Positions 6,507-25,583 of a stretch of 64,000 bases of DNA are shown in pieces; positions within the stretch are counted from its first letter, which is position 1; each line of letters opens with the position of its first letter. The notes under the pieces are model-generated. The model was not told where the DNA came from and ran no database searches. It was given only the letters and a program-made list of their open reading frames with translations. Origin of the DNA: a virus (Duplodnaviria; Caudoviricetes); IMG/VR virus record IMGVR_UViG_2896003607_000008, positions 2,752 to 66,751 of that record. One strand, 5' to 3'. The position numbers were made by a program, and so were the translations under genes.

Positions 6507-6520
6507 GTTCGCTCCGATCA

Positions 6521-8014
6521 TCAGGAGAGGCTGGCGAGCGCGAGACGGCGGCGGCGCGCAGCGCGCTCGGCGCTGGCGCGCTCTTCCGCCGTCGGCGGCG
6601 GCGAAGAGAACGACGCATTCGGCTCCAGTACGCAGAGCCATTCGCCAGCCGCGTTCTCGCCAAGCTTCGTGTAGACAGCTGCGCCGTTCGCGACCGCGAC
6701 GGTCACAGTGTTTCCGACACAACTCGCGAGACCGCGCTCTAGGATTGCAGGGTCGAGCTTCGCTTGCTTCGGCCAGTCTTCGACAACGAAGACCTTCTTC
6801 TGATCTCCGTCCGAGTCCTGCCTGAACACGATCGCCCGCGCGTCCCCGAAGAGCGCTACAACATCAACGACAAGCTCTCCGACGTTGGCCGCGACCGCGG
6901 AAAGACTCGCGACGGCGGAAAGGCTGACGCCGCTAATGTCTCCGTCGACCGTCGTGACCACCTGATACAGCGCGGGCTCTTCACTCACCGTGGTGGCCGA
7001 ATTCGCGGCCTTGTCCTGCTCAGCCGCCGGCTCTTCTCCGCCGGCAGCGGACGTCGGCGGAGTGCCATCCTCACAACCGCGGCGCCTTCGTGCGTCAGCG
7101 GGCTGCAGCTGTACTCCGCACCCGAGAAGAGCGGTGCGCATCGACTGGATGTCGTCGATCATGCCGACGCTTTTTGCCATCTGAGCCGACATGCACCGGC
7201 CCTTGCCGAACGTATTGATCACGGCGTCGGCCTTCATCCTGCGTCCGCGCGCAACACCGCCGATGAAATCGCGATAAGTCTGATCGACTTCGGTCTGGTA
7301 GTAGTTACGCGCCTCATCCGACAGCGGCTCGTACGCGTTTCCCTCGGTCTTGTACTCGCCGGCATAGATGAACGTCGGCTTGATACCGGCGTCCTTGAGC
7401 ATCGCTGAGCAGTCGGTGTGCATCATGAACACGCCAACCGATCCGACGTCCGCAGACGGAACAGCGATGATGGTGGTCGCTTGCGAAGCGATCCAGTAAC
7501 CAGCCGATGCGCACAACGGGTCAATGACCGCCGTAACCTTCTTCGCCTTGCGGGCATTGAACACCGCATCGGCAGCTTCCGGCGTTCCGGTCACCCGACC
7601 GCCAGGCGTGTCGATGATCAGAACGATCTGATCAATCGCCGGGTCCGCGGCCATCTCGTTCATGGTCTCTGCCAGCAGCTTCGTGCTGAAGCAATACGGC
7701 TGGTACTCGAGATCGTAGAGAGCAATTCCCTGCACCGGGACTACCGCGGTGAACTTCCCCTGCTTCGCGCTCGGGACGAGCTGCTGACCTGAGAACGCGG
7801 TGATGTGTTCCGGCTCAATGCCGTCCTCAGCATCGGCGCGGCGATCCGAGAAGAACTCCTTGATCTCGCCGTCGTGCACGCGCTCTCCACGCGCGATGCG
7901 TTCCAACAATACCGATAGAGATGCGCCGAACCCGTGCCGCATCTCGTAGGCAAGCGGAGCCCCGATGCTGTTTCGGATCTCACGCTTGAACCGCTGCATT
8001 GCGCCCATCTGCAA
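6521..8014 (-). CDS. S49 (SppA-like) prohead protease with long C-terminal extension
   Basis: IDTPGG, CASAGYWIASQA, VGSVGV, AGEYKTEG motifs; between portal and capsid. Confidence 0.9.
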   Translation of the reverse strand: MQMGAMQRFKREIRNSIGAPLAYEMRHGFGASLSVLLERIARGERVHDGEIKEFFSDRRADAEDGIEPEHITAFSGQQLVPSAKQGKFTAVVPVQGIALYDLEYQPYCFSTKLLAETMNEMAADPAIDQIVLIIDTPGGRVTGTPEAADAVFNARKAKKVTAVIDPLCASAGYWIASQATTIIAVPSADVGSVGVFMMHTDCSAMLKDAGIKPTFIYAGEYKTEGNAYEPLSDEARNYYQTEVDQTYRDFIGGVARGRRMKADAVINTFGKGRCMSAQMAKSVGMIDDIQSMRTALLGCGVQLQPADARRRRGCEDGTPPTSAAGGEEPAAEQDKAANSATTVSEEPALYQVVTTVDGDISGVSLSAVASLSAVAANVGELVVDVVALFGDARAIVFRQDSDGDQKKVFVVEDWPKQAKLDPAILERGLASCVGNTVTVAVANGAAVYTKLGENAAGEWLCVLEPNASFSSPPPTAEERASAERAARRRRLALASLS

Positions 8015-13333: not shown

Positions 13334-13600
13334 TTACTTGATCGCGATGTAGCGACCATCGACGGTCGGTAGGTAGCTCGTGTCGCCGTTGCGGTCGGCG
13401 AGCTTAAGGGCCTGCGCCTTGGTCAAGGGCTTAACCGCAAGGTTGATTTCGGAATTTTCCGCCACGTATGCGTCCCGCGCCGCGCGGCTCTCGAAAACAA
13501 TCGCCGAAAAGGTGTTGTCGAAGCCGACCGACGTATCGCTGCCATAGGAATTGGTGCGGGCGAAAAACTGCGTCTGCTGGCGGTTCGGGTGGTTGGTCAT
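13334..13600 (-). CDS. Hypothetical protein (MTNHPNR..., 88 aa)
   Basis: GGAGA RBS before the internal ATG; protein-like composition. Confidence 0.7.
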   Translation of the reverse strand: MTNHPNRQQTQFFARTNSYGSDTSVGFDNTFSAIVFESRAARDAYVAENSEINLAVKPLTKAQALKLADRNGDTSYLPTVDGRYIAIK

Positions 13601-13759
13601 TTTCGGTCTCCGCCCCTGATCCCCGAGGCGCGGGCGCCAGCCCTTGCTGACAATCACAACCCTAACAGCTAGCCATATGGGCGCCAAGCCTAAAAGCGTG
13701 CGCCGCCGACCTGATTTGTGATATTTTCGGCGTTTTCTGATTTATTTTGTGTTTTCCGC

Positions 13760-13787
13760 TTGACGCCGCGCCCGGCTTCTGTATGGT
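13760..13787 (+). promoter_or_regulatory. Sigma70-like promoter heading the accessory cluster
   Basis: TTGACG-N16-TATGGT with AT-rich upstream tract; predicted start ~13793-13794. Confidence 0.65.
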
Positions 13788-13832
13788 GCGGACACCGGCC
13801 GAATGTGGCCACCGAATGAGGACCCGGACAAA

Positions 13833-13973
13833 ATGTCCGCAATTCTTTCCCTCTGCATTGAACAGCCGATCCTGCCGGCCACCGTCCTAAGCATGGCCGT
13901 TGGCGTCCTGATTATGTGGTTGGAAGCGCCGGCCACGCCGCGGCGCCACCGTCGGAAGGTCCGCCGCACCTAA
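13833..13973 (+). CDS. 46-aa membrane microprotein with basic tail
   Basis: Manual translation MSAILSLCIEQPILPATVLSMAVGVLIMWLEAPATPRRHRRKVRRT; behind leader repeat 1. Confidence 0.6.
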   Translation: MSAILSLCIEQPILPATVLSMAVGVLIMWLEAPATPRRHRRKVRRT

Positions 13974-14015
13974 CTCCCCGCAACCGGTCAACTGTGACCA
14001 CCGAACGAGGACAAC

Positions 14016-14228
14016 ATGCACAGCAACACAATCAAAGGTCTCATGCTAGACGCCGCTGCGGCGCTGACCTCCGGCCACGCCGCGGCCGCGCATCGCCTGA
14101 TGTGCTCCGCCGACCGCCTGGCCGTAGCCGATCCGAGCATATCGGCCACGCGCCGCGACTTGATCGCTACCGCGCGCGTCGCCGTTGCCTCTGTGATGAA
14201 CTCGAGCCGTTACCATGAACTCGCATAA
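14016..14228 (+). CDS. Hypothetical protein (70 aa)
   Basis: Behind leader repeat 2 with GAGGA RBS. Confidence 0.7.
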   Translation: MHSNTIKGLMLDAAAALTSGHAAAAHRLMCSADRLAVADPSISATRRDLIATARVAVASVMNSSRYHELA

Positions 14229-14421
14229 GATCGCCAAGGGCGCGCCCGTCTCTTACAAATGCGGACACGGGGACCGAGTTAGCGCCATCGTCAAGCGCCG
14301 CCACCGTGACGGCACCGCGACAGTTGAAGCGCGCTTCGTGATGAACCAGGACGGCACGGAACGCGGTTGTTATCTCGGTTTCCGCTATCGGCTGAGCGTT
14401 TCAATTCTGGCAATGCGCTAA
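14215..14421 (+). CDS. Hypothetical protein (68 aa)
   Basis: Overlaps the previous stop; small beta-rich protein. Confidence 0.55.
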   Translation: MNSHKIAKGAPVSYKCGHGDRVSAIVKRRHRDGTATVEARFVMNQDGTERGCYLGFRYRLSVSILAMR

Positions 14422-14515
14422 CTATGAACGCTTCCGCCTTGCGCCGGTTTGGCCGGCGCAATGGGAAGCGCTCCTGCTTCAAACCGCCAACTGTGGCACC
14501 CAATGAGGACAGACT

Positions 14516-15379
14516 ATGCGAATTTACACCGCCACCGCTCGCTTTGACACCGGCCGCCCGCTGACGAATGAGGAACTGTTCAAGGTCGCGCCTTCAATCT
14601 TCGCGACCACGGCGCATCATTCGCGCTCCGATCGTTTCCAGCCGATCCCGACGATTGCCGTACTCGACCAGCTGCGAAAGGAAGGTTTCGAGCCGGTAGG
14701 CGCGAAGCAAGCGATGGCGCGCGAGGGTGACCGCCGCGACTATGCAAAACACCTGATCCGGCTTCGCCGCTTCGATAACGTCAAGGCGTATCAGGTTGGC
14801 GACACGATTTGCGAAATCCTTCTGAAGAACGCGAACGACGGCACGTCCGCTTATGATCTGCTGGCGGGTTTGTTCCGTATCCGGTGCATGAATTCGCTGG
14901 TTTCGCAGGAATCGACCATCGAAACCGTCAAGGTCCGCCATTCCGGTGACGTTGCGAGCAAAGTAATCGAGGGGACCTATTCCGTGCTGAGCGAAGCCCA
15001 GAAGTCGCTTGCCGCACCGGATCAGTGGTCGCGGATTACTTTGACCGAACGCGAACGGGAAGCGTTCGGCGCCTCGGCTCGGCTCCTGCGGTTCGGCGAT
15101 GCCGACGGCAACACTGACACGCCGATCACTCCCGCGCAGATGGTCCGACCGCGCCGCCGCGACGATATGGCGAATGATCTCTGGACGACGTTTAACGTTG
15201 CACAGGAAAACGCAATTCGCGGCGGGCTCCGGGCAATTGGTCGGGATGCTAACAACCGTCCGCGTCGTGTCACCACCCGCGGCGTCAATGGCATCGATCA
15301 AGACGTCAAGTTGAACCGGGCGCTGTTCACCTTGGCGGCCGAAATGGCGAAGCTGAAAGGCGTCCCCCTCGCCGCCTGA
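14516..15379 (+). CDS. DUF932 (DUF945) family protein
   Basis: APSIFA..HHSRSDRFQPIPT, KHLIRLR, LKNANDGTSAY, FRIRCMNSLV, DLWTTFNVAQEN, DVKLNRALF motifs. Confidence 0.9.
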   Translation: MRIYTATARFDTGRPLTNEELFKVAPSIFATTAHHSRSDRFQPIPTIAVLDQLRKEGFEPVGAKQAMAREGDRRDYAKHLIRLRRFDNVKAYQVGDTICEILLKNANDGTSAYDLLAGLFRIRCMNSLVSQESTIETVKVRHSGDVASKVIEGTYSVLSEAQKSLAAPDQWSRITLTEREREAFGASARLLRFGDADGNTDTPITPAQMVRPRRRDDMANDLWTTFNVAQENAIRGGLRAIGRDANNRPRRVTTRGVNGIDQDVKLNRALFTLAAEMAKLKGVPLAA

Positions 15380-15519
15380 TCCGCGGCGGCGCGGCCGAGC
15401 TCTACCGGCGGCGCCGTCTCACCCTCGCGATTGCAGCCCATGCCGCGACGATGTGCGCGGCATGATCGGCAAGCGCCGAACCGGCCAAATGTGGCCACAA
15501 ACCTAGAGGAGCCCGGACA

Positions 15520-15618
15520 ATGTCGACGAAACGCATCCCGATCAAATTCGACCGCAAGCGTATCCGCCGCCAAGTCGAGCGCACCGGCAAACGAGCGTTT
15601 CTGAATTCGTGCCTTTGA
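15520..15618 (+). CDS. 32-aa Arg/Lys-rich microprotein
   Basis: Manual translation MSTKRIPIKFDRKRIRRQVERTGKRAFLNSCL; behind leader repeat 4. Confidence 0.6.
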   Translation: MSTKRIPIKFDRKRIRRQVERTGKRAFLNSCL

Positions 15619-15704
15619 CGTTTCGACACTGCGGCGCGCCGCAGCGCCGCAGCACGAAACGCCACCGCAACCGCGCAACTGTGCGCACCTTAGGAGGAGT
15701 CACC

Positions 15705-16880
15705 ATGCAACCCGTCAACCCGGCATCGGTCCGCGCGGCCAAGGCATCGGACCGCAAGGCGCTGGCGATCATCGCTTACGACACCGCGACCGCCGATCCG
15801 CAGAACGCGAATTGGCGCGCGGTCGCCGATATGCTGCGTCTCGCATTGCCGGCTTCCAGGACTGCTAAGACGGCGGCGCAGGCTGCCGAGCCGAGTCGCT
15901 TTGCGCCGTGGTCGGATTATTCCGTCAACTCGGTTTCATCCAAGCGCCTCGGGAAATCTCCCGTGGTGGTGGTGACATTCGCCGATGGCGAAACGGTCCG
16001 CGCGCCGGCGGTTTCGCTCTCGGGTAAACCGATCAATATCGGTCGAGCGCTCCGCGTCGCTTCGGCGTTCTATCAAGCCCGCATCGCTATCCGCTACGGA
16101 CGGACATCCGACGACTCGCAATGCGTCGACGTTCCCGCGATCGTTTCCGCGGTGTGCGAAACCACGGGCGCCGAATTCGATCCTGCAGAGTGTTCGGCGC
16201 GAACCGCAGAGCTCCGCCGCGGCGCGTTCAACGTCGCCGCAACGCTGGCGGAATTCGACGCCACCGCTGGCGATGGCGCCGACCACCTGCAACGCGAGGC
16301 GCACCTGCAAGCCGCTTACAGGACCGCGCTGCGAGCGCACCGCGCCGCCGGGCTCGGCGACATGGCGCCGACGGAATACACCGACGCGGACCGCGTTGAC
16401 GCCACCGAATGGCTGCAGGATCGGCCGGCAATGGTCGCGGCGATCAAGGCGGCGACGCGCGCCGGCCGCCGATCATTCACCGATGCGGCCATGCGGCTGA
16501 CCTGGGCCGTAATGACGTTCTGGCCGGGCGCGGCGGATTCCGAGCTCGGCGGCGCTGGCCACGGCGCGCCGGCCAGCGATGCGGCGGCGGCTGCCGAGAC
16601 GGAAAGCGCCGCCGTGGCGGATACGGCGCCGCCGGTGGCGCCGCTGGCTGCCGACATGGTTTCGCCCGCGGCTGCCGAGACCCGCGACCACGCGCCGCCG
16701 GAGACGGCTGCAGCAGTTGCCAAGACGGCGCGCAACGATGCCGAGCCGAGCCCAGCCGCACCGCGGGCCCGCGCGGCGCGGTTCAAGATCCCGCCGCGGC
16801 TTCTGGCGACGTCTTGGCTTGCTCCGGTTGACCGGTTGCGACCTTCGGCGCCGCCTTGCGTTCTGCGGGTTGCGGCATAG
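15705..16880 (+). CDS. Hypothetical protein with Ala/Pro-rich C-terminus
   Basis: Start behind leader repeat 5 (GGAGGA); 391 aa. Confidence 0.75.
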   Translation: MQPVNPASVRAAKASDRKALAIIAYDTATADPQNANWRAVADMLRLALPASRTAKTAAQAAEPSRFAPWSDYSVNSVSSKRLGKSPVVVVTFADGETVRAPAVSLSGKPINIGRALRVASAFYQARIAIRYGRTSDDSQCVDVPAIVSAVCETTGAEFDPAECSARTAELRRGAFNVAATLAEFDATAGDGADHLQREAHLQAAYRTALRAHRAAGLGDMAPTEYTDADRVDATEWLQDRPAMVAAIKAATRAGRRSFTDAAMRLTWAVMTFWPGAADSELGGAGHGAPASDAAAAAETESAAVADTAPPVAPLAADMVSPAAAETRDHAPPETAAAVAKTARNDAEPSPAAPRARAARFKIPPRLLATSWLAPVDRLRPSAPPCVLRVAA

Positions 16881-16892
16881 GAGCGGCGCGCC

Positions 16893-17252
16893 ATGAAACG
16901 CAACCCGCCGACCTTTGCCGAGCTCTGCGACGCGGTGGCACGCCGCGCGCCGCCGACCACGCAAACCGAATGGCGCGCCGCTTCACGCGCTATCCGAGAG
17001 GCGCGCCGCGCATCTGGCGGGCGCGTCGGCCGAACTATCATCCTCCCGTGCGGGACGTCGCACCGGTACATCTACGCCGAAGCTTCGTTCGGCGGGATGC
17101 GCTGCTACAACGGGCCCGGCCACCTTGCCGCGGTCGACATGATCGCGCACCACCGCCGCCGCCTGCAGGAAGGCTGCCGAGCCAGCCGGGTTGAATTCGC
17201 CCGACAGTTTGCCGCAGCTGCGCGGCGAGATGGCAGGGTGCCGCTACCATGA
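16893..17252 (+). CDS. Hypothetical protein (119 aa)
   Basis: AGGAG RBS; follows previous gene. Confidence 0.6.
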   Translation: MKRNPPTFAELCDAVARRAPPTTQTEWRAASRAIREARRASGGRVGRTIILPCGTSHRYIYAEASFGGMRCYNGPGHLAAVDMIAHHRRRLQEGCRASRVEFARQFAAAARRDGRVPLP

Positions 17253-17359
17253 AGCAGCGCCGCCAAGCGGTCCGCAAATCGCGCTGCCCGCACTGCCGGC
17301 AACTGCGGCCGTTCTACATGATCGAACGCCACATCACGCAATGCGAGGAGCTGCGCTAA
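17249..17359 (+). CDS. 36-aa C2HC zinc-finger microprotein
   Basis: ATGA overlap; MKQRRQAVRKSRCPHCRQLRPFYMIERHITQCEELR. Confidence 0.5.
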   Translation: MKQRRQAVRKSRCPHCRQLRPFYMIERHITQCEELR

Positions 17360-17446
17360 CCCCCTCGGCTACGGCCGATTCCCCCTCCCGGCTACGTCTG
17401 ATTTTTGAACCGCGCGACTGTGCGCACAATCGAGGAGACCGAGCAG

Positions 17447-17998
17447 ATGCACGCATTTATCAACGTCGAAACCTGCGGCCACATTTACGGGCCTGGCGGC
17501 CGTGGCGAGATCGAGCTCGACCCGGCGGCGAAAATCTGCGGATCAGAAACGATCGTCCACAGCCGCGAGTTGCCCGGCTTTGTCGAGGACCGCGCCAACG
17601 GTAGCGCCGGCGTCACCTATGAGTCGCATCGCTTCTCGGTGCACTTCCTGGCGTTCGCCCGCGGCGGCGCGGCCGTCGGCGATTTCTGTGGCGTGCTGGT
17701 CCGCGTTCACCACGGCGCCGGCTGGGAACTGTGGCGCGGCGACGACATGCTCGCGGATGCGCTGTGGCGCTACGGCGATGATGACCGCGGGCTATTCAAA
17801 CTCTGCTGGTACATGATCGATGCCGCGCGGGCGGCGCGCGGCGGCGGCGCGCACATGGAGGGCGAGAGATACCGCCGCGCGTTCGTTGATGGGCGCCTCC
17901 GCAAGCGCAAGCTCCCGTCGCGCGGCGCTTATCGAGTCTGGATCGACCCAGAACGTCCCGCCCCTACGGCCGATTCCGTTATCCCCGCGTTCGGCTGA
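17447..17998 (+). CDS. Hypothetical protein
   Basis: Behind leader repeat 6; AFVDGRLRKRK C-terminal motif. Confidence 0.75.
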   Translation: MHAFINVETCGHIYGPGGRGEIELDPAAKICGSETIVHSRELPGFVEDRANGSAGVTYESHRFSVHFLAFARGGAAVGDFCGVLVRVHHGAGWELWRGDDMLADALWRYGDDDRGLFKLCWYMIDAARAARGGGAHMEGERYRRAFVDGRLRKRKLPSRGAYRVWIDPERPAPTADSVIPAFG

Positions 17999-18014
17999 TT
18001 TGGAGGATCGAGAA

Positions 18015-18293
18015 ATGAAAGCAATACAGAACGCCAATGGTTTCCGCGTCGGGCAAGCCGTTCGTGTACTTGTGCCGTGCATCGGTGACGACCACGAAGG
18101 GACTGAGCACCACTTGCCGGCCGGTCGCCATGGAACGGTCGAGCAAATCGACGAATACCCATTACCGCAAGGGCTGGCATTCACCGTTTATGTGCCTGTC
18201 GATGGCGAGCGCGGCATAACAAACGTGTTCGATGAGTCCGACGGACACATCCGCGACTTTATCGAGCCTGAGACCGTCGCCGGCAGCAATTGA
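18015..18293 (+). CDS. Small hypothetical protein, SH3/KOW-like pattern
   Basis: GGAGGA RBS; FRVGQAVRV...GRHGTVEQI pattern. Confidence 0.7.
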   Translation: MKAIQNANGFRVGQAVRVLVPCIGDDHEGTEHHLPAGRHGTVEQIDEYPLPQGLAFTVYVPVDGERGITNVFDESDGHIRDFIEPETVAGSN

Positions 18294-18370
18294 ACCGTTG
18301 ACCATCGCAGCATAGCCGCTGCGTATTTTCTCAAAACCGCCAATAGTGGCACCCGATGAGGAGACCAGAA

Positions 18371-19270
18371 ATGTCCGGCACTGCAACCACCGCAAAGCTC
18401 ACACCTTGCCCGAACTGCTCGGAGCCCGTCGACATCGACAGCTTGGACGAGTTCGAATGCACTTACGAGCAGTGGAAGTGCCACGCCTGCGGCTCCTGGA
18501 ACAATCGCAGTGACGGCGCGGAACAGGCCGAGAGGGTGACCGGTCTTGACGATCAGGAGACCGCAATCATTCTCGCCGGGCTCCGCATGATCCAACGCAT
18601 GGGCGTTCAGAATGAGGAGGACGACATCGCCAGCGGAGGCGGCGAGTTCGACCCGCTCGGAGATGATGAAATCGAGGCTCTTTGCGAGCGGCTTTGCCGC
18701 CCAGTTGCGGATATCACGGCGGGTCGGAACGCACTTTCCGTGCTGCGCGCCATTCGTTCCGACAACCCGGAGTTTGAGACCGGCGCCGCCGTCGACCACG
18801 CGGACGTGACGGCACGTCTTGCCAAGCGCTGGCCGGAGATTTGTGCCGAGCTCGACGCCCACCCGGTTGCGCCTTCCCCGGACTGGCGCCGCATCGCCCA
18901 TGAACTCGACGGCGCGCTCGACGCCTGCACCCACCAAATCAGCCAGATGCGCGGCATGTTCGACGATGCCGACGGCACGATTCAGGAAGCTGTCGACGCT
19001 GCCGACGAAGCGGCGGCATCCTATCGCGCCGCCGTCGCCGGCAGCCCCACACCTGTGACGGTGACTATCTGGAGCGTCTACACCGACGGCGACAACCTCA
19101 CGCCTCGCGTGACGCTGCATGCGAGCCGGCCGGATGCCGAGCAACGCGTGCGTGACGTGCTGGACAACGACACTGCCGAGGATGTGGCGGAGCAATGGGC
19201 GGCGGAAACCGACGGCGGCATGTGCTGCATTGAGGAGCACGCATTCCCGCTCCCCCCCGCCGCCATCTGA
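18371..19270 (+). CDS. Acidic multi-domain hypothetical protein with N-terminal Zn ribbon
   Basis: CPNC...CHAC; behind leader repeat 7. Confidence 0.75.
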   Translation: MSGTATTAKLTPCPNCSEPVDIDSLDEFECTYEQWKCHACGSWNNRSDGAEQAERVTGLDDQETAIILAGLRMIQRMGVQNEEDDIASGGGEFDPLGDDEIEALCERLCRPVADITAGRNALSVLRAIRSDNPEFETGAAVDHADVTARLAKRWPEICAELDAHPVAPSPDWRRIAHELDGALDACTHQISQMRGMFDDADGTIQEAVDAADEAAASYRAAVAGSPTPVTVTIWSVYTDGDNLTPRVTLHASRPDAEQRVRDVLDNDTAEDVAEQWAAETDGGMCCIEEHAFPLPPAAI

Positions 19271-19306
19271 TTCCCCCGACTACGGCTAATTTCGGAGACA
19301 GAAATC

Positions 19307-19819
19307 ATGACCCAGGAACATGATCCGGCCGACCGCGAGACCTGCAGTTACTGCGGCATCGCCGAAGATATCCATCTTCTAGACGGCGTTCTCGATGCCG
19401 ACGGGAACGACACAGGGAAACTCGCATGTATCGCTTGTTACCCAGTCCCGGACACCTGGGAGCCGTGCGGTGTTGAGCATATCGAGATCAGCATCGCACC
19501 GTCTCTAATGCCTCGTTATGCTGCATGGAACCATCTTCGGCTGCTTCGCAAACACGCTTACAAACTATCTTCCGTCGTCTTGAGAAGTGCTATCGAAACA
19601 CTCGATAGCTTGACCTATTACGACAAAGATCAGAATTCACACATCCTGGCGTCGCCAAGGTACATGAAGGCGCTTCGCAAAGCTCGCCGGCAATCGGGGC
19701 GACTGCGGGCCGCGATCCTCGGAAATTCTGACGCCATCACCGAGGCGCTGCGCAAATACGAAGCCCCGCTTCTTGACGCGGCGTCCCTGTTCGAGGATGG
19801 CGCGGCACTGAACTACTGA
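19307..19819 (+). CDS. Hypothetical protein with CxxC...CxxC motif
   Basis: CSYC, CIAC; GGAGA RBS. Confidence 0.65.
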   Translation: MTQEHDPADRETCSYCGIAEDIHLLDGVLDADGNDTGKLACIACYPVPDTWEPCGVEHIEISIAPSLMPRYAAWNHLRLLRKHAYKLSSVVLRSAIETLDSLTYYDKDQNSHILASPRYMKALRKARRQSGRLRAAILGNSDAITEALRKYEAPLLDAASLFEDGAALNY

Positions 19820-19872
19820 ACTACTGAACTGCAACCGCGCGATTGTGCGCACCGCATGAGGAGCCCAGACAA

Positions 19873-22308
19873 ATGACTATGACCGCAACCTATTCGCCCG
19901 ATGACAACAAGCTGCGCCTGTACGCTTCGCGGCGACTTGACGCCGAGACCTTTGCACGCGTGAAAGCCGCTGGCTTCAAGTACGCACCGAAACAGGACCT
20001 TTTTGTTGCGCCGTGCTGGTCGCCGGAACGCGAGGATTTGCTCCTCGAGCTCTGCGGAGAGATCGGCGACGAGGATACATCGCTGGCCGACCGCGCCGAG
20101 CAACGCGCCGACCGCTTCGAGATTTACGGCGAGAAGCGCCTAGCCGAAGCGGAGGCGGCGCGCGAAGCCGTGGCGGAAATTGCAGACGGAATCCCGCTTG
20201 GCCAGCCGATCCTGGTCGGCCACCACTCCGAACGTCACGCCCGCCGCGACGCGGAGCGGATCGAGTCGGGCATGCGTCGCGCGGTGAAGCTGTGGCGCAC
20301 ATCGGAATACTGGGCGCGGCGCGCGGCGGGCGCGATCCGTCACGCCAAATACAAGGAACTGCCGGCGGTGCGTCACCGGCGGATCAAGGGTATCGAGGCG
20401 GACCGCCGCAAGGTGGAGCGCAGCAAAGCCGAGTCCGAAAAGTGGCTGAAGCTCTGGGCGGCTGCCAGTGCAGAAACCGACCCGCCGCGCCAACTCGCGT
20501 TTGCTAGGAAGCTCGCAAACGTCGGTTACATGACGCTGCCGAAGAAGGAAGGCGACCGCGAGGACATGCCGAACGGCCCGAGCGCGTGGACGGCACTCAG
20601 TGACGAACCGTCGCCGGGTGTTTTCGCGCCGCGGACCGTCGCCGAGGTGATTGCGTACGCGTTGAGCATCTATCCGCGATCGATCGAGCGCGCCGCCCGT
20701 TGGTTGGAGCACTATGACAACCGCCTGGTCTATGAGCGCGCCATGCTCGCCGAGCAGATCGGCGGCGGCGATGAAGGCGCGGCGGCGACAATGGGCGACC
20801 GATTTCCGTTCACCGTCGGCGGCAAGGTGCAAGTGTCGCGCAGCCACGCCCGCAGCGAGTGGCTGACCATCCTGCGCGTCAACCGCACCGGCGGGACGGT
20901 CAACAGCATCACCACCGAGGCGCCGGCCGGCGTGCATTGGCAGAAGACTTGGAAATTCAGCGTTGAAGAGGTGACGGCCTACGAGGCGCCCAGCGCCGCC
21001 GCGGTCGAGCAGGCGAAGGAAGCGGCGAAGCTGCCGCCGCTCTGCAACTATCCCGGTGACGGCTTCGTGCACATGACGAAGGACGAATACGAAAAGGTGC
21101 CGAAGTCATACCGCGGCTATCGCGAGCTGCGAAAGCTGCCCGACGGGCTCGGCCGGCATCGCACACGTGTTGCGATCGGCGCCTATGCGTTCCGCGGCAA
21201 GTGCGAAGACAACAAGCGGCATAGCTACTTCCCCGTCTTCATCACCGACGCTAAGCGCGTTGACCCTCCCGCGGCGCCGGCGCCGACCGAGCCGACCACA
21301 CCGGCGGAATTCGTCGCCGAGATCGTCGCGCCTCCGAGCGCGGCGAAGGCGGAACGCGCCGCCTCGCCGGAGATCGACGCCGCAGCGGGTGAGAGCCCCG
21401 CCGAAGCGACAACCGGCGCCACCCCCTCGGCTGCGCCTTCCTGTGCCGCCGAAGCGCAGCGCGTGCTGGGATCCGCTCAGGACGAAGCGGAGCGGGCCGG
21501 CGCCGAGATCATCATGGGCCTTGGCCAATATCGTGTCGGCCGCGGCGCGGTCGTTACTGGCTGGCACGACGCTGCCGCGGATGCCTGGCGCGAGTTCTGC
21601 GACCTTGCAGGCCTTGCGTTCTCCGAAGATCTGACACCACCGGCGCGGCCGCGCGCCGCCCCCGCGGCTACGGCTGATTCTGCAGCCCCCTCGCGCGCGG
21701 CTGATTTCGAAGCAATGGCGGCGGCGATCCGTTCCGGCCAAGCGGTGCAGGTGGTGGCGGCGCCGCAGTTGTTCGCGACGCCGCGCGACCTTGCTGCGGA
21801 GGTGGTCGAACTCGCCGAGCTGGAGACCGGGCACCGCGTCCTAGAGCCATCCGCCGGCACCGGCGCGCTGGTCTGGCCTGCAATTGAGCGTGGTGCCCGC
21901 GTGACCACCGTCGAGATTAACGAGGTTCTATCCAAAGGGCTCGGCTGCAGCCAACGGATCGAGCACGGCGTCACCTTGGATTTCCTTACTCTTCGGCCGT
22001 CCGAAGAATGGTTATTCGACCGCGTGTTGATGAATCCACCCTTCGAGAACGGCGCCGATATCAAACACATCGAGCACGCGCTGCGCTTCCTGAAACCCGG
22101 CGGTCGTCTGGTCGCGATCTGCGCGAATGGTCCGCGCCAACGCGCCCGGCTTATGCCGATCGCCTCGACGTGGCGCGACCTTCCGCCGGGCTCGTTCAAG
22201 TCGTCGGGCACCATGGTGAACGCCGCGCTGCTGGTGATCGAGGCTCCGAATGCACCCGCGGCTACGGCCGATTCCGCCGGGCCCGTCGCCTCAGCCGGCG
22301 CGGAATAG
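19873..22308 (+). CDS. DUF3560-domain protein fused to a C-terminal amino (N6A-type) methyltransferase
   Basis: ATYSPDDNKLRLY, IPLGQPILVGHHSERHAR (DUF3560); VLEPSAGTG and VLMNPPF MTase motifs; behind leader repeat 8. Confidence 0.9.
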   Translation: MTMTATYSPDDNKLRLYASRRLDAETFARVKAAGFKYAPKQDLFVAPCWSPEREDLLLELCGEIGDEDTSLADRAEQRADRFEIYGEKRLAEAEAAREAVAEIADGIPLGQPILVGHHSERHARRDAERIESGMRRAVKLWRTSEYWARRAAGAIRHAKYKELPAVRHRRIKGIEADRRKVERSKAESEKWLKLWAAASAETDPPRQLAFARKLANVGYMTLPKKEGDREDMPNGPSAWTALSDEPSPGVFAPRTVAEVIAYALSIYPRSIERAARWLEHYDNRLVYERAMLAEQIGGGDEGAAATMGDRFPFTVGGKVQVSRSHARSEWLTILRVNRTGGTVNSITTEAPAGVHWQKTWKFSVEEVTAYEAPSAAAVEQAKEAAKLPPLCNYPGDGFVHMTKDEYEKVPKSYRGYRELRKLPDGLGRHRTRVAIGAYAFRGKCEDNKRHSYFPVFITDAKRVDPPAAPAPTEPTTPAEFVAEIVAPPSAAKAERAASPEIDAAAGESPAEATTGATPSAAPSCAAEAQRVLGSAQDEAERAGAEIIMGLGQYRVGRGAVVTGWHDAAADAWREFCDLAGLAFSEDLTPPARPRAAPAATADSAAPSRAADFEAMAAAIRSGQAVQVVAAPQLFATPRDLAAEVVELAELETGHRVLEPSAGTGALVWPAIERGARVTTVEINEVLSKGLGCSQRIEHGVTLDFLTLRPSEEWLFDRVLMNPPFENGADIKHIEHALRFLKPGGRLVAICANGPRQRARLMPIASTWRDLPPGSFKSSGTMVNAALLVIEAPNAPAATADSAGPVASAGAE

Positions 22309-22371
22309 CCCCCCTCGCCTACGATTGATTCCCCTATCCCCGGCTGCGGCCGATTTGAGAGGAAACGAACG

Positions 22372-22743
22372 ATGCCAATGATTGAACTAGCCACTGAGGA
22401 GAAAGACCTGCTGCGGCGGCTCGCCGCGAGCAAGGTGGAGGACAGCGACACAACGGCCGAGCGCCTGGTGGTGAATTGCGGGCTGGCACGCCGCGTCGAC
22501 CCCGGCATGCTGGAAATCACCGAGGCAGGCCGACTGGCGGCGCGCACCGGCAAGGTCGAACGTCACCCGTTCCACTACGACGTGTTCTGCGACCTCTCAG
22601 CCCGCATCGAAGACGTCGCCAAGTCGCGTGATCCGCGGCTTGAGAGTGCTGTTCGCCGGAAGCTTGAGGAAGCGGCCCATGCGATCTGGGAGGCGTGGAA
22701 TCTTCAATCCGAACTTGAGCGGGCTGCTGGCCTACGCGCGTGA
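22372..22743 (+). CDS. Hypothetical protein (possible wHTH-like N-terminus)
   Basis: GAGAGGA RBS; LEITEAGRLA motif. Confidence 0.65.
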   Translation: MPMIELATEEKDLLRRLAASKVEDSDTTAERLVVNCGLARRVDPGMLEITEAGRLAARTGKVERHPFHYDVFCDLSARIEDVAKSRDPRLESAVRRKLEEAAHAIWEAWNLQSELERAAGLRA

Positions 22744-22790
22744 CCAAGACCTGAACCCGGCAACTGTGCCGACCGAGAGAGGAGCACGAC

Positions 22791-23240
22791 ATGATCCACC
22801 GAACCCTTGAAATTTCAACTCGCCACCTGTCGCCGAACGCGAAGGCCTGGCTGTCCGCGTGCACGATGATCGCGCCGATCTCTCGCGCCGCAACCACCGT
22901 CTTGGCGGCGACTGGCGCCGGCTGGCTTGTCCAGGTGCTCGGGCAGCCTTGTCGCGCTGTGGCGCGTCTGCAGGTCCTGCTGGAGCGTCGTGAAATGCTG
23001 CTCCGAACTCCCGGGCTCGGCCGGCACGGCGCCGAGCTGGTCAAACGCTTCGATCGCGCTATCGACGACACCGTGACCACGCCGCCAGAAGGCATGCCGA
23101 CCGACCTCTGGAGGTGCTTGGCGCGCGCCGCCGCCGAGGACTGCAGACTGGTGCTGTTCGACGACGAGGCGCCTACCCTCGACTGGCCGGAGATCCCAGA
23201 CGCAGGCGACGCGCTGCGCCGCTGCGAGGCGGCGTCGTGA
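22791..23240 (+). CDS. DUF5983-like protein
   Basis: LEISTRHL...GWLV...PTDLWRCL..A...CRLVLFDDEAP pattern; behind leader repeat 9. Confidence 0.6.
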   Translation: MIHRTLEISTRHLSPNAKAWLSACTMIAPISRAATTVLAATGAGWLVQVLGQPCRAVARLQVLLERREMLLRTPGLGRHGAELVKRFDRAIDDTVTTPPEGMPTDLWRCLARAAAEDCRLVLFDDEAPTLDWPEIPDAGDALRRCEAAS

Positions 23241-23806
23241 GCCGCGAGGTTCGGCGCGTGCCGGCGACTTGGGCGCATCCTCGGGACCGGCAAGGCCGCT
23301 TCATCCCGCTGCGCGGCGGAAACTACGCCGCTGCGGCGGCCGCCTGGGACGAAGGCGCAGCCCAGTGGGATGCCGGCATGGTGGCAACCAACGACAGCCG
23401 CCCGGGCGCGCCGGCGTGGCGCCCTCGCGATGGCTTCACGGTCTCGCGCAGCTACGAAGACTTTGCTGGGATGCGTCCGGTCGCGGCGACCTTCATGCCG
23501 AACTGGCCGCCGGAGGAAAGGACGCATTGGCAGATGTACGAGACCTCGAGCCACGGCACCCCGCTCTCTCCGCCTTTGCCGTCCGCCGCCGAGCTCGCCT
23601 CCTGGCTGGCCGACCACCACGCAAGCATAGGCCCCGGTTTGACGGCTTCGGCCACTGAATGGCTGAAGCTGATCGAGCAAGGCCGCGGCACGACCTTCAG
23701 CTTCGACGAACGCGCGAACCCGGTCTCGCTTCTGGCCCCACCCCCGGACTACGGCCGATTTCCCAGGATTCGCCGGCTCATTCGCCGTTGGACCGGCCGA
23801 CGATAG
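23237..23806 (+). CDS. Conserved phage hypothetical protein (SREVRRVP..W.HP type)
   Basis: GTGA overlap; MPNWP.EERTHWQMYET.S.GTPLSP motif. Confidence 0.7.
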   Translation: MSREVRRVPATWAHPRDRQGRFIPLRGGNYAAAAAAWDEGAAQWDAGMVATNDSRPGAPAWRPRDGFTVSRSYEDFAGMRPVAATFMPNWPPEERTHWQMYETSSHGTPLSPPLPSAAELASWLADHHASIGPGLTASATEWLKLIEQGRGTTFSFDERANPVSLLAPPPDYGRFPRIRRLIRRWTGRR

Positions 23807-23896
23807 CCGCCCCCCACGGCTACGGCCGATTTCCCATGAACAGATTCGAGCCGCGGTCTTCCACAGGCCGCATGGCAGAGCTTGCGGAGGATGGAT

Positions 23897-24430
23897 ATGC
23901 TAAACCTAGAGACGAGGACTGCTGAAGTGTCACTAAAACCGATATGCGACCTCAACGTCGCCAAGCGCTATATCGCCCAGGCGGTGCCGCTTGGTGAGGA
24001 TCCTTGCCAGTTCAACGCGATCTGGGCAGCCCCCGGGCAAGTCCCCAATTTCGTCTATGAGGGCGACGATCCCGAGGTCTTCTCGACCGCCGATGACGCC
24101 GAAGCAAAGGCTCGCAAGGTTCTTTTCGAGGCTCTCAACGCCCGCCGGCCGGCAAGGCAAGCCTATGTTCCGAACCAGCCTGGCCTGCGCCGCGCGGTGA
24201 AATTCCTGAAGATGACCGGCGAGGAGTTCGCGGTCGCCCAAGCTGCGGCCGATCTGACCGACGCTGAGATTGCCTTTGCATGGGGGACGACCCCCGATCG
24301 GGTGGTCCGCTGGAAATCTGGCGCGGACGCAGTGCCCTTTGCGATGCACTGGGTGCTTCCGCTCCTGAAGGACGAGAAAAACTACGAGTTCGTGCTCGAC
24401 GTGGCTGAACAGAAGACCGTCGACAAATAG
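23897..24430 (+). CDS. Protein with C-terminal XRE-like HTH
   Basis: MTGEEF...LTDAEIAFAWGTTPDRVVRWKSG..VP; GGAGG RBS. Confidence 0.7.
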   Translation: MLNLETRTAEVSLKPICDLNVAKRYIAQAVPLGEDPCQFNAIWAAPGQVPNFVYEGDDPEVFSTADDAEAKARKVLFEALNARRPARQAYVPNQPGLRRAVKFLKMTGEEFAVAQAAADLTDAEIAFAWGTTPDRVVRWKSGADAVPFAMHWVLPLLKDEKNYEFVLDVAEQKTVDK

Positions 24431-24443
24431 GCGGAGGTTCGCA

Positions 24444-24857
24444 ATGGCAAGCGGCTTGGGCATGGATCATGGGGCGATGACGAGCCAACCCGTCCGCATG
24501 GTCGGCCGCGTCGCGATCCGGCCCGGACCGATCGCCATCCTCACCGAGCGCGGAACCATCAGAACGCGGCGCCGGGTGCCGAGCGCCACCCCGAAATATC
24601 CGATCAGCTCGCCGGGTGCCTGGATCGCGGACGGACACCGCACGGCCTATGTGCGCTGCACCTGGTGTGGACATGAGGTGAGCAGCCTGAGGCTTGACCA
24701 GCTCCCGCCGGATTGGCCGTGGCGGCGCGTGTGCCGAGCGATGCTTTGCACCGAATGCGGAACGCCGGGGTGCGTCCACGTCGTGCCGAACTGGCACGAC
24801 AACAAGCTCCATAAAACGCCGTTCACCTCGGCCTGGCGAGCGGACCCGCCAGCATGA
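24444..24857 (+). CDS. Hypothetical Zn-ribbon protein
   Basis: CTWC and CTECG motifs, VVPNW. Confidence 0.55.
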   Translation: MASGLGMDHGAMTSQPVRMVGRVAIRPGPIAILTERGTIRTRRRVPSATPKYPISSPGAWIADGHRTAYVRCTWCGHEVSSLRLDQLPPDWPWRRVCRAMLCTECGTPGCVHVVPNWHDNKLHKTPFTSAWRADPPA

Positions 24858-24901
24858 AGATCATCTCGACGACAGACCGCCACGCGCGGCCGGTGTGAGC
24901 G

Positions 24902-25165
24902 GTGTCCTGGACGCTGCGCTTTGATCCGCCGATTCCGCTACCCGATGGCGGCGAGATCGCCACGCTGCGCGAGGCCGGCGACTACATCGCCGCCCTGCCG
25001 CCGGCCGAGCAGCGCCACCCGGAGGTGCAGGTCGCCATCCATGTCCTGCTCCAGGCGGCTGACCACGGCGGGCCGATGATCTTTGCCCGCATGGGCGTCC
25101 TGCGAATGCTGGCGCGCCACGATCCACCGCCGACACCACGGCCGGCACGGCGCCGCCGCTGGTAG
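24902..25165 (+). CDS. Conserved rhizobial hypothetical protein
   Basis: W..RFDPPIPLPDG..IATLREAG.YI..LP...GGPMIFARMG pattern. Confidence 0.65.
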   Translation: MSWTLRFDPPIPLPDGGEIATLREAGDYIAALPPAEQRHPEVQVAIHVLLQAADHGGPMIFARMGVLRMLARHDPPPTPRPARRRRW

Positions 25166-25226
25166 CCGCGGCGCTTACCGCCGCCGCAATCACGTCTCAC
25201 CGGCGGGGCGCCGCCGACATATGTGG

Positions 25227-25583
25227 CTAGGTCGCGCCGCCGCCAGAGCTGCGGTCCATCCTGGCAGCGCGGGCTTCAATGCCCTTCTTGACGTTGTGGG
25301 CAGCGCATTTGCATGCGCCATTGCTTAGGTCGAACCTGAGTTCCGGACGGTCTTTCACCTCGAGGATGTGATCAGCGTACATCCTGTCGCCGCGCGCCCG
25401 GCTCCGTTCGCACCGATGGCCGTTTTCAACGTGCTCGCACCGCCATCCGGCCCGGCTCTTCACCTCGAACGCCCATGTTTTGTGTGCGGTTGACCCATAG
25501 TCGCTGTCTGCCGTCTTCGGTAGCGGCTTGGCCTTCCGCGCATCAAGCACAGCGACTCGAGAGCCGAGCATCTTCACCATCAT
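25227..25583 (-). CDS. HNH endonuclease (terminase-associated type)
   Basis: YGS..HK.W...VKSRAGWRCE, YADHILEVKD, SNGACKC..HN. Confidence 0.85.
   Translation of the reverse strand: MMVKMLGSRVAVLDARKAKPLPKTADSDYGSTAHKTWAFEVKSRAGWRCEHVENGHRCERSRARGDRMYADHILEVKDRPELRFDLSNGACKCAAHNVKKGIEARAARMDRSSGGGAT

What the first reader, a model, noticed from the sequence alone, without database searches (positions are those of the whole stretch)
13793..22793. Nine genes share a covarying hairpin-plus-RBS leader: candidate undescribed RNA (or ssDNA) control system
Seen: nine gene starts carry (A/C)ACC-stem-RAHWGT-stem'-AC-N4-7-GAGGA-N4-10-ATG. Stem/loop/stem: 13793 GGCC/GAATGT/GGCC; 13982 GGTC/AACTGT/GACC; 14482 GCC/AACTGT/GGC; 15479 GGCC/AAATGT/GGCC; 15669 GCGC/AACTGT/GCGC; 17408 GCGC/GACTGT/GCGC; 18335 GCC/AATAGT/GGC; 19833 GCGC/GATTGT/GCGC; 22754 CGGC/AACTGT/GCCG. 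Stem sequence changes but pairing is always kept, including non-self-palindromic stems, while loop and flanks are conserved: the signature of a folded single-stranded element rather than a dsDNA operator. Copy 1 starts about where the TTGACG/TATGGT promoter would initiate. I saw no copies outside this cluster. Established analogues: lambda boxB/nut hairpins, coat-protein translational operators, CUP repeats before ard genes of IncN plasmids. Inference: a protein-recognised leader coordinating translation, processing or antitermination of the cluster.
Basis: partly seen in the sequence, partly recalled or inferred. Interest (0 to 1): 0.88.

Follow-up and report, generated by a model that had tools for sequence, protein, structure and literature searches.

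The report
Repeated hairpin leaders in a Bradyrhizobium-type phage
Nine genes of an early accessory operon in a temperate phage each start with the same small RNA hairpin set a fixed distance before the ribosome-binding site; related phages share this undescribed signal and always also encode a tiny arginine-rich peptide that may read it.

Summary
Exactly nine copies of AACC-stem-RAHWGT-stem'-AC-SD-ATG lie on the + strand at 13793-22793 and nowhere else in the 66.7-kb phage contig.

- **Pairing:** it covaries in 3 of 4 stem pairs, and 0 of 500 shuffles reach the observed score.
- **Rfam:** no match.
- **Distribution:** the same leader occurs in 13 more phage records, 94 canonical-loop matches in the 13 records aligned. 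In each it is confined to the homologous one-strand cluster. Three named Bradyrhizobium genomes also carry it.
- **Spacing:** the hairpin sits 8-10 nt before the SD in 87 of 92 copies.
- **Transcript start:** the first copy follows a sigma-70-like promoter in 11 of the 12 phages examined; L012 is unclear.
- **Strand:** loop position 1 is A or G and position 6 is always U. A fifth pair is therefore possible only on the mRNA strand.
- **Peptide:** a conserved 32-34-aa arginine-rich peptide gene, with its own hairpin, is in all 14 leader-bearing records and in no control locus.

Best reading: an mRNA hairpin operator coupled to the SD, probably read by a phage factor. Function is untested. The scan noted analogous repeated leaders in other phages. 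The closest published analogue is SAS/ESAS of Cluster K mycobacteriophages.

The parts
13760..13787 (+). Sigma-70-like promoter of the operon (TTGACG-16-TATGGT). The predicted start falls 2-4 nt before hairpin 1.
   Evidence: The same promoter-then-hairpin layout is seen in 11 of the 12 phages examined; L012 shows no clear hexamers.
13793..13835 (+). Leader 1: stem GGCC/GGCC (13797-13810), loop GAATGT, SD, ATG 13833 (46-aa ORF).
   Evidence: hairpin -7.6 kcal/mol.
13982..14018 (+). Leader 2: stem GGTC/GACC (13986-13999), loop AACTGT, ATG 14016 (70 aa).
14482..14518 (+). Leader 3: stem GCC/GGC (14486-14497), loop AACTGT, ATG 14516 (DUF932, 287 aa).
15479..15522 (+). Leader 4: stem GGCC/GGCC (15483-15496), loop AAATGT, ATG 15520 (the peptide gene).
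15520..15618 (+). 32-aa arginine-rich peptide gene (MSTKRIPIKFDRKRIRRQVERTGKRAFLNSCL), the candidate reader of the hairpins.
   Evidence: Conserved in all 14 leader-bearing records. Coding signature. No Pfam or PHROG family. Helix 12-31 in a modest AF2 model.
15669..15707 (+). Leader 5: stem GCGC/GCGC (15673-15686), loop AACTGT, ATG 15705 (391 aa).
17408..17449 (+). Leader 6: stem GCGC/GCGC (17412-17425), loop GACTGT, ATG 17447 (183 aa).
18335..18373 (+). Leader 7: stem GCC/GGC (18339-18350), loop AATAGT, ATG 18371 (299 aa).
   Evidence: It is preceded by a terminator-like hairpin at 18306-18323.
19833..19875 (+). Leader 8: stem GCGC/GCGC (19837-19850), loop GATTGT, ATG 19873 (DUF3560 + methyltransferase, 811 aa).
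22754..22793 (+). Leader 9: stem CGGC/GCCG (22758-22771), loop AACTGT, ATG 22791 (DUF5983, 149 aa).
13760..25165 (+). The one-strand accessory operon that holds all copies. It is divergent from the capsid/portal/TerL module on the minus strand.
   Evidence: synteny with relatives.

Best explanation
**What it is.** The motif is a short hairpin in the mRNA of a single early accessory operon of a temperate phage. The stem is 3-5 bp with a closing C-G pair, and the loop is R-A-N-W-G-U. It lies about 9 nt before the Shine-Dalgarno GG of each independently translated cistron. Hairpin and SD together form one portable translation-start leader.

**How it most likely works.**
- The first copy sits at the 5' end of the primary transcript, where it would also protect the RNA.
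- The loop and closing pair are kept while stems and flanks drift. I infer a sequence-specific reader that sets translation (and perhaps stability) of all these cistrons together.
- The leading candidate is the phage's own 32-34-aa arginine-rich helical peptide. It is made from the same operon behind its own hairpin, which would give a self-limiting pulse of expression.

**Shown:** the motif, its pairing, its spacing, its restriction to one strand and one cluster, the promoter context, and the peptide's conservation and co-occurrence.

**Inferred:** that it acts as RNA, that it acts on translation, and that the peptide reads it.
For: **Pairing covaries**
- Window copies: 3 of 4 pairs covary, 0 of 500 shuffles reach the score.
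- 98 matches in 13 records: 97.6% of cells paired against 79.6% shuffled, 36 double-changed cells against 6.4.
- Orthologous leaders differ by compensatory changes. DUF932 leader: GCC/GGC (window), GCGC (L002), GGCC (L005), GCCC/GGGC (L012). DUF5983 leader: CGGC/GCCG (window) against TGGC/GCCA (L005).

**Loop is conserved**
- In 94 of 98 matches the loop is a 6-mer with A2, G5 and U6 invariant. The closing C-G is invariant (92 of 92 counted cells).

**Sense strand is favoured**
- Position 1 is G in 59 and A in 35 loops, and position 6 is U in 94. A fifth pair (A-U or G.U) is therefore possible only on the mRNA strand.

**Spacing is locked to the SD**
- From the hairpin 3' end to the SD GG: 9 nt in 62 of 92 copies and 8-10 nt in 87 of 92. 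From the GG to the start codon: 5-14 nt.
- The SD is not sequestered.

**One operon**
- One sigma-70-like promoter heads the + strand cluster.
- The first hairpin begins 8-13 nt after the -10 hexamer where one is recognisable, in 11 of 12 phages.

**Specific to the phage cluster**
- 96 of 98 model matches are on the cluster strand.
- In whole provirus records and three 8.4-9.5-Mb Bradyrhizobium genomes, the good matches lie in the cluster.
- No match at E<=1 in 37 other DUF932 loci, 40 chance loci and 36 metagenome loci.

**Peptide**
- Found in 14 of 14 leader-bearing records.
- Found by its own DNA pattern in 7 further records, all with at least 3 hairpins.
- A hairpin-first search found one more multi-copy record, and it also has the peptide.
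- Third-codon-position changes number 586 against 244 and 248 at the first two positions.
- Predicted helix over the Arg-rich part, pLDDT 72.
Against: - No expression or binding data exist. No RNA run was listed, and this is not counted either way.
- All 14 records belong to one related set of phages, so peptide-hairpin co-occurrence could be shared ancestry rather than function.
- In most relatives the stem is GCGC (71 of 98 matches). Most of the covariation therefore comes from the window, L005 and L012.
- No G.U pair occurs inside the 4-bp stem, so the strand call rests on one loop-closing pair that may not form.
- The peptide could instead be a regulatory leader or arrest peptide. A conserved C-terminus at the stop codon, with a GC hairpin after it in the window, fits that too. 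It could also have an unrelated role.
- The AF2 model is of modest confidence, and any short basic peptide tends to be modelled as a helix.
Confidence: 0.5

Rival explanations
1. Reader-less structural leader. The hairpin is a cis-acting module that protects the 5' end (primary for copy 1, processed for the others). It also insulates the SD from upstream coding sequence. It spreads with gene cassettes, so its uniformity reflects common descent, recombination and concerted evolution rather than a binding partner.
For: - The first copy lies at the predicted transcript 5' end in 11 of 12 phages examined.
- The hairpins are stable on their own, -5.0 to -8.3 kcal/mol.
- The SD is left free.
- Gene content between leaders is mosaic. 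Homology breakpoints lie within 40 nt of a hairpin in 18% of cases against 7.6% at random, with HSP starts at 26%.
- Other DUF932-carrying viral contigs have their own, different hairpin+SD leaders.
Against: - A purely structural hairpin does not need an invariant A2, G5, U6 and closing C-G across phages whose proteins are only 50-73% identical.
- The breakpoint enrichment is expected at any gene boundary, so it is weak evidence.
- It does not explain the strict 8-10-nt spacing to the SD.
Confidence: 0.27
2. nut/boxB-like antitermination. The arginine-rich peptide binds the hairpins on the nascent RNA and makes RNA polymerase read through terminators in the operon.
For: - An arginine-rich small protein occurs together with an RNA hairpin near the transcript start.
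- A terminator-like hairpin lies at 18306-18323 just before copy 7.
Against: - One or two sites per transcript would suffice, yet there are 9, each locked to an SD.
- 0 of 92 copies has a boxA-like GCTCTT within 40 nt upstream (the motif is recalled).
- Terminator-like sites are not enriched: 7 found against 10.2 in shuffles.
- The peptide is 32-34 aa, far shorter than N-type proteins, which also need regions that bind NusA and the polymerase (recalled).
- The loop is a 6-mer, not a GNRA-like pentaloop.
Confidence: 0.1
3. Double-stranded DNA site. The inverted repeat is an operator or promoter element for a dimeric DNA-binding protein or a phage-specific sigma or polymerase.
For: - In most relatives the site is a nearly fixed 17-mer, with a GCGC stem in 71 of 98 matches.
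- Inverted repeats are typical operators.
Against: - Within one genome (the window, L005) five or more different arm sequences all keep complementarity, while the asymmetric centre is conserved. This is the reverse of an operator.
- The orientation is strictly one strand, and the spacing to the SD is fixed.
- Only copy 1 has promoter hexamers upstream.
- The GT-arm-AC palindrome seen with self-complementary arms is lost with GACC, GCCG and GGC arms.
Confidence: 0.06
4. Single-stranded DNA hairpin, as in plasmid leading-region or N4-type hairpin signals, acting while the DNA is single-stranded.
For: - The cluster carries genes typical of plasmid leading regions: DUF932, DUF3560-methyltransferase and DUF5983. 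The DUF932 homologue alone matched at least 5000 plasmid records.
- Stem covariation alone cannot tell RNA from DNA.
Against: - The element is a tailed dsDNA phage with capsid, portal and TerL genes.
- The two Agrobacterium/Rhizobium plasmids examined carry the DUF932 homologue but lack the motif.
- A sigma-70-like promoter already drives copy 1.
- If the strand used as template were the folded one, the fifth pair would be A.C in 59 of 94 copies.
Confidence: 0.03

Closest known systems
[quoted passage not shown]
   Same: - Many copies per genome (11-19 there, 9 here).
- One orientation.
- Restricted to the non-structural part of the genome.
- Placed just before start codons and including the SD.
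- About half carry an upstream inverted repeat.
- Conserved gene by gene among relatives.
- Function still unverified in 2025.
   Different: - Unrelated sequence and host (actinobacterial phages).
- The ESAS arms are 17-bp imperfect repeats with a conserved arm sequence and a variable 4-13-bp spacer.
- Here the arms are 3-5 bp and vary, while the 6-nt loop is the conserved part.
- No associated micropeptide is reported there, at least in the passages I read.
Lambda-type N protein with boxB/nut hairpins (recalled, not tested by a call)
   Same: A short arginine-rich helix paired with a small RNA hairpin whose loop is conserved. One site lies near the start of the early transcript.
   Different: - There are 9 sites, each fixed to an SD.
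- No boxA-like word is present.
- The loop has six bases.
- The peptide is only 32-34 aa.
- No excess of terminators.
Phage T4 RegA translational repressor and the T4 gene 43 operator hairpin (recalled)
   Same: - One phage factor acting at the ribosome-binding regions of many early messages including its own (RegA).
- A hairpin just 5' of the SD acting as a translational operator (gene 43).
   Different: - RegA sites are not a defined hairpin.
- The gene 43 operator is a single site.
- No sequence relation.
- Nothing here has been tested at the bench.
Coat-protein operator hairpins of RNA phages such as MS2 and PP7 (recalled)
   Same: A small hairpin with specific loop bases, read by a protein to control translation.
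   Different: - Those hairpins contain the start site of one gene.
- They are single-copy and are read by a coat-protein dimer.
Promoter-early stem-loop (PeSL) cassettes of T4-type phages (recalled)
   Same: Repeated short regulatory units with a stem-loop that flank swappable accessory genes.
   Different: PeSLs carry a promoter at each copy. Here only copy 1 has one.
5'-terminal stabiliser hairpins such as the ompA leader (recalled)
   Same: A hairpin within a few bases of the mRNA 5' end; this applies to copy 1.
   Different: It does not explain the conserved loop or the eight internal copies unless the RNA is processed at each.

Membership tests
Any Rfam 15 family | Match to a curated covariance model | tested here: not met
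   0 matches at gathering score over the window. At E<=10 over 13600-25500, 8 weak matches appear, none on a hairpin copy.
SAS/ESAS of Cluster K mycobacteriophages | 13-bp asymmetric consensus GGGATAGGAGCCC at start sites (as printed in PMC3203893) | tested here: not met
   The leaders here read RAHWGT-stem-AC-N-GAGGA; there is no such 13-mer.
SAS/ESAS of Cluster K mycobacteriophages | Many one-orientation copies at translation starts, limited to non-structural genes | tested here: met
   9 of 9 copies are on the + strand before SD-ATG, and all lie in the accessory operon.
SAS/ESAS of Cluster K mycobacteriophages | ESAS: 17-bp imperfect inverted repeats with conserved arms and a variable 4-13-bp spacer | tested here: not met
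   Arms are 3-5 bp and vary; the loop is a fixed 6 nt.
Lambda-type nut site (boxA + boxB) with N | boxA-like word upstream of the hairpin | tested here: not met
   0 of 92 copies have GCTCTT within 40 nt upstream (the motif is recalled).
Lambda-type nut site (boxA + boxB) with N | Pentaloop hairpin of the GNRA-like kind | tested here: not met
   94 of 98 loops are 6-mers R-A-N-W-G-U.
Lambda-type nut site (boxA + boxB) with N | Arginine-rich RNA-binding protein encoded by the phage | tested here: inconclusive
   A 32-34-aa Arg-rich peptide is conserved and co-occurs with the hairpins. It has no family match and binding is untested.
Lambda-type nut site (boxA + boxB) with N | Terminators downstream that need read-through | tested here: inconclusive
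   One terminator-like site on the + strand lies just before a hairpin copy (18306-18323). Overall 7 are found against 10.2 in shuffles. Rho-dependent sites cannot be scored.
dsDNA operator for a dimeric regulator | Conserved half-site sequence, less constrained centre | tested here: not met
   Arms vary with kept complementarity; the centre is conserved and asymmetric.
REP/BIME-type intergenic palindromes | Genome-wide, both orientations, mostly after genes | tested here: not met
   One strand and one cluster, before genes. In three Bradyrhizobium genomes the good matches lie in the prophage cluster. Only 150 of about 860-1085 candidates per genome were scored.
Plasmid leading-region ssDNA signals | Presence in conjugative plasmids that carry the same genes | tested here: not met
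   Two plasmids with the DUF932 homologue (63-67% identity), and the small record L001, give no model match better than E = 0.85 with filters off.

The most novel reading that the evidence does not exclude
This would be a minimal phage translational regulon. A 32-34-aa arginine-rich helical micropeptide binds a six-base-loop RNA hairpin placed about 9 nt before the Shine-Dalgarno of roughly ten cistrons of an early, anti-defence-like operon, its own included. That would switch the whole set on or off together. It would be the smallest known dedicated translational regulator, with a defined operator family.
Probability: 0.3. Interest if true: 0.8.

Novelty: new variant of a known kind. Interest (0 to 1): 0.62.

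Why it matters
Repeated start-site leaders in phage accessory regions have been known since 2011 (SAS/ESAS) and are still unexplained. This family is a cleaner case for four reasons:
- The hairpin is tiny and well defined, and its pairing covaries.
- Its loop is invariant and its spacing to the SD is fixed.
- It starts at a single promoter.
- It comes with a specific candidate partner small enough to synthesise.

The question "what do start-associated repeats do" therefore becomes directly testable with a peptide, an 18-nt RNA and a reporter.

The operon it controls carries genes typical of plasmid leading regions (DUF932, DUF3560-methyltransferase, DUF5983). The leader may therefore time an early anti-defence programme in phages of a nitrogen-fixing symbiont genus.

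It would also add a new motif to RNA family libraries and a portable leader for synthetic operons in alphaproteobacteria.

Tried and rejected
**Readings tested and dropped**
- *An outer helix pairing upstream bases with the SD, enclosing the hairpin.* Single-sequence folds suggested it in about 5 of 9 copies. Across 92 copies the pairing energy is no better than for random windows (mean -3.4 against -3.7 kcal/mol, p = 0.93). Rejected.
- *A GT-arm-AC DNA palindrome.* It holds only for self-complementary arms. Rejected.
- *Wobble pairs inside the stem to call the strand.* None occur, so this is uninformative. Only the loop-closing R-U pair bears on strand.
- *Plasmid origin of the motif.* It is absent from the two plasmids examined.
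- *Host-wide use of the motif.* Not seen. Two stray singleton hits were inspected and are not hairpin+SD leaders.
- *A peptide of the same kind in other hairpin lineages.* None is convincing. L007 has a weak look-alike only.

**Searches that gave nothing**
- Megablast of the cluster against GenBank phages: no match.
- ESM Atlas for the peptide: best score 0.86, unnamed clusters.
- Pfam and PHROGs for the peptide and eight other cluster proteins: nothing.
- Sequencing runs: no RNA holder is listed.
- Earlier findings by look-alike stretches: none.

**Weak result**
- Homology-breakpoint enrichment near hairpins is real but expected at any gene boundary, so I give it little weight.

**Not seen**
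- Supplementary files of the SAS/ESAS papers were not seen and may hold detail on ESAS pairing.

Full report
**Observation**

The nine copies are present exactly as described.
- A fixed-length pattern gives 9 window matches against 1.84 expected, and 0 of 100 shuffles reach 9. Seven of these are the 4-bp copies.
- A flexible scan of the whole contig held for this window (66,751 bases) required a stem of at least 3, a loop R...[T/A]GT and an SD-like word within 18 nt. It returns ten sites: the nine copies, all on the + strand, and one unrelated minus-strand site.
- Each copy is followed by an SD and an ATG that opens an ORF of 32-811 aa.
- On a structure-blind alignment (A1), 94.4% of stem cells pair against 62.7% in shuffles. 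Three of four pairs change on both sides, 0 of 500 shuffles reach the covariation score, and slid registers fall to 22-58%.
- RNAalifold finds the same helix unaided and adds a fifth pair.
- The isolated hairpins fold at -5.0 to -8.3 kcal/mol.

**Context**

The contig is a tailed phage. The minus strand upstream carries two capsid paralogues, an S49 protease, a portal and TerL.

The hairpins lie in a divergent + strand operon running from about 13.8 to 25.2 kb. Its recognisable products are DUF932, a DUF3560-methyltransferase fusion and DUF5983. The rest match no Pfam or PHROG family.

On the + strand of the operon there is one clear sigma-70-like promoter, at 13760-13787, and one more weak hexamer pair at 22355. 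There is a terminator-like hairpin at 18306-18323. Terminator-like sites are not enriched: 7 against 10.2 in shuffles.

**A family, not a private repeat**

A covariance model of the nine copies (R1) was run over the window and 43 loci (42 from IMG/VR, plus L001).
- It gave 46 matches at E<=1, all on the gene strand and all in seven sources: the window, L002, L005, L006, L009, L012 and L037. The other 37 sources gave none.
- Five of the six relatives share the capsid, portal and TerL module and the same divergent layout.
- In whole provirus records of 43-132 kb, the good matches lie in the cluster on one strand.
- With five more records added, 98 matches were aligned. Of their stem cells 97.6% pair against 79.6% in shuffles, and 36 double-changed cells compare with 6.4.
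- Of the 98, 94 have a six-base loop with A2, G5 and U6 invariant, one has a four-base loop, and three weak ones are odd. The closing C-G never varies.
- The stem is GCGC in 71 of 98. Most covariation therefore comes from the window, L005 and L012. It includes compensatory differences at orthologous leaders.

Rfam has nothing on the copies. Six full-text searches found no paper on this motif.

**Features that bear on mechanism**

1. Spacing. From the hairpin 3' end to the SD GG is 9 nt in 62 of 92 copies and 8-10 nt in 87 of 92. From the SD to the start codon varies from 5 to 14 nt. The hairpin is positioned on the SD, not on the start codon or the upstream stop.
2. Transcript start. In 11 of the 12 phages examined, the first copy begins 8-13 nt after a -10-like hexamer with a TTGACN -35. 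L012 shows no clear hexamers. The hairpin therefore sits at the extreme 5' end of the primary transcript, and the internal copies have no such hexamers.
3. Strand. Loop position 1 is G (59) or A (35) and position 6 is always U. An extra A-U or G.U pair can therefore form on the sense strand. On the antisense strand it would be A.C in most copies.
4. Free SD. A suspected anti-SD helix from single folds is no better than random across 92 copies.
5. No boxA-like word precedes any of the 92 copies.

**The peptide**

Translating the ORF behind every model match showed a 32-34-aa arginine-rich ORF in all seven leader-bearing phages. It sits at window 15520-15618, just after DUF932, and each copy has its own hairpin leader.
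- A profile of the seven finds it (E<=2e-11) only in those seven among the window and 45 loci.
- It has a coding signature: 586 third-position differences against 244 and 248 at the first two positions.
- The family is narrow, with 9 representative clusters at E<=1e-3 among 1.84 billion proteins. It has no Pfam or PHROG family.
- AlphaFold gives a helix over residues 12-31 at pLDDT 72.

Peptide-first searches used a DNA pattern for its C-terminus:
- Five new IMG/VR records were found, and 5 of 5 have 4-9 hairpins at E<=0.1 in one cluster and on one strand, apart from a single weak off-strand, out-of-cluster match in one record.
- Three named Bradyrhizobium genomes were found, all with hairpin clusters. 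The 40 chance-match loci in that model search have none.
- One of 37 metagenome loci is real. It is the only one of the 37 with hairpins, and it has 3.

A hairpin-first search gave 12 new contigs. Eleven hold a single copy with no SD and no peptide. One (L147) has multi-copy leaders, and it has the peptide.

So 14 of 14 leader-bearing records have the peptide, and no control locus has either feature. The caveat is that these phages are related, so shared descent is not excluded.

**Reading**

The best-supported account is an mRNA hairpin that, together with the SD, forms a portable translation-start leader of one early operon. Copy 1 doubles as a 5' cap-like stabiliser.

The invariant loop and closing pair, set against drifting stems, flanks and 50-73%-identical proteins, argue for a sequence-specific reader. 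The peptide is the leading candidate. If it represses, the arrangement would give a self-limiting pulse, in the manner of T4 RegA (recalled).

The rivals are:
- a reader-less structural or cassette leader;
- N/boxB-type antitermination;
- a dsDNA operator;
- an ssDNA signal.

The plasmid versions of the DUF932 neighbourhood that I examined lack the motif. Three host genomes show it essentially only in the prophage cluster, with only part of the candidates scored.

**Comparison and novelty**

The closest published analogue is the SAS/ESAS system of Cluster K mycobacteriophages (passages read). Like this motif, it has many one-orientation copies at translation starts in the non-structural half, some with an upstream inverted repeat, and its function is still unverified. 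The sequence, arm length and pattern of conservation differ, so this is not a member.

Earlier notes of this scan report analogous repeated leader hairpins in other phages. The phenomenon recurs, and this is a new, well-defined variant of it. What sets it apart is a candidate trans-acting micropeptide.

No expression or binding data could be obtained.

Noticed in passing
window 17369-24255, + strand: A second repeat (CTRCGGCYGATTT-like) has 10 copies in the same operon, all on the + strand, with 2 weak matches elsewhere. That is 12 matches against 2.44 expected. Several copies sit right before an SD-ATG (about 17985, 19280, 22344, 23820). Others lie inside the 811-aa ORF on both sides of its methyltransferase part. 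GGC-UACG-GCC could fold as a UNCG-type tetraloop hairpin; that is my reading of the sequence and is not tested.
   Followed up: partly
L011, L014, L015, L018, L019, L023, L024, L025 (upstream of the DUF932 gene and its neighbours): Other DUF932-carrying viral contigs have their own repeated hairpin+SD leaders. One type has stems that vary around an AATYMN loop before GGAGCAAC. Another is a CGCGTT...RACGCG hairpin before AGGAGAGCAA. Hairpin-plus-SD leaders may be a general habit of these accessory clusters.
   Followed up: partly
window 13833-13973; L006 9391; L009 9612: The first ORF of the operon is a small hydrophobic peptide with an arginine-rich tail. It is conserved in position among relatives. 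Function unknown.
   Followed up: no
window 18306-18323: The only good intrinsic-terminator-like hairpin inside the operon lies 12 nt before hairpin leader 7. GC hairpins without a T-run also precede leaders 4 and 5.
   Followed up: no
L007 9841 and 9966, 10925: A 31-aa basic ORF ending ...NIFLDCI lies just before the DUF932 gene. Nearby are two GCGCC-AKTGA-GGCGC hairpins before SDs. This may be a divergent counterpart of the peptide-hairpin pair. The peptide profile does not reach it.
   Followed up: no
L044 3880-3950 and 8930-9000; L001 about 2950-3020: In an Agrobacterium plasmid and a small phage-labelled record, the parB-like and DUF932 genes share a different upstream repeat (GGCTTCGCCC...GGGGCTTGCC).
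   Followed up: no
window 4042-5334 and 5487-6641, minus strand: Two tandem Phage_capsid (PF05065) paralogues. Both are also present in relatives L002, L005 and L037.
   Followed up: no
window 19873-22308: The DUF3560 and methyltransferase parts are one 811-aa ORF here. In L006, L009 and L037 they align as two separate tblastn pieces about 30-120 nt apart. Fusion or split was not resolved.
   Followed up: no
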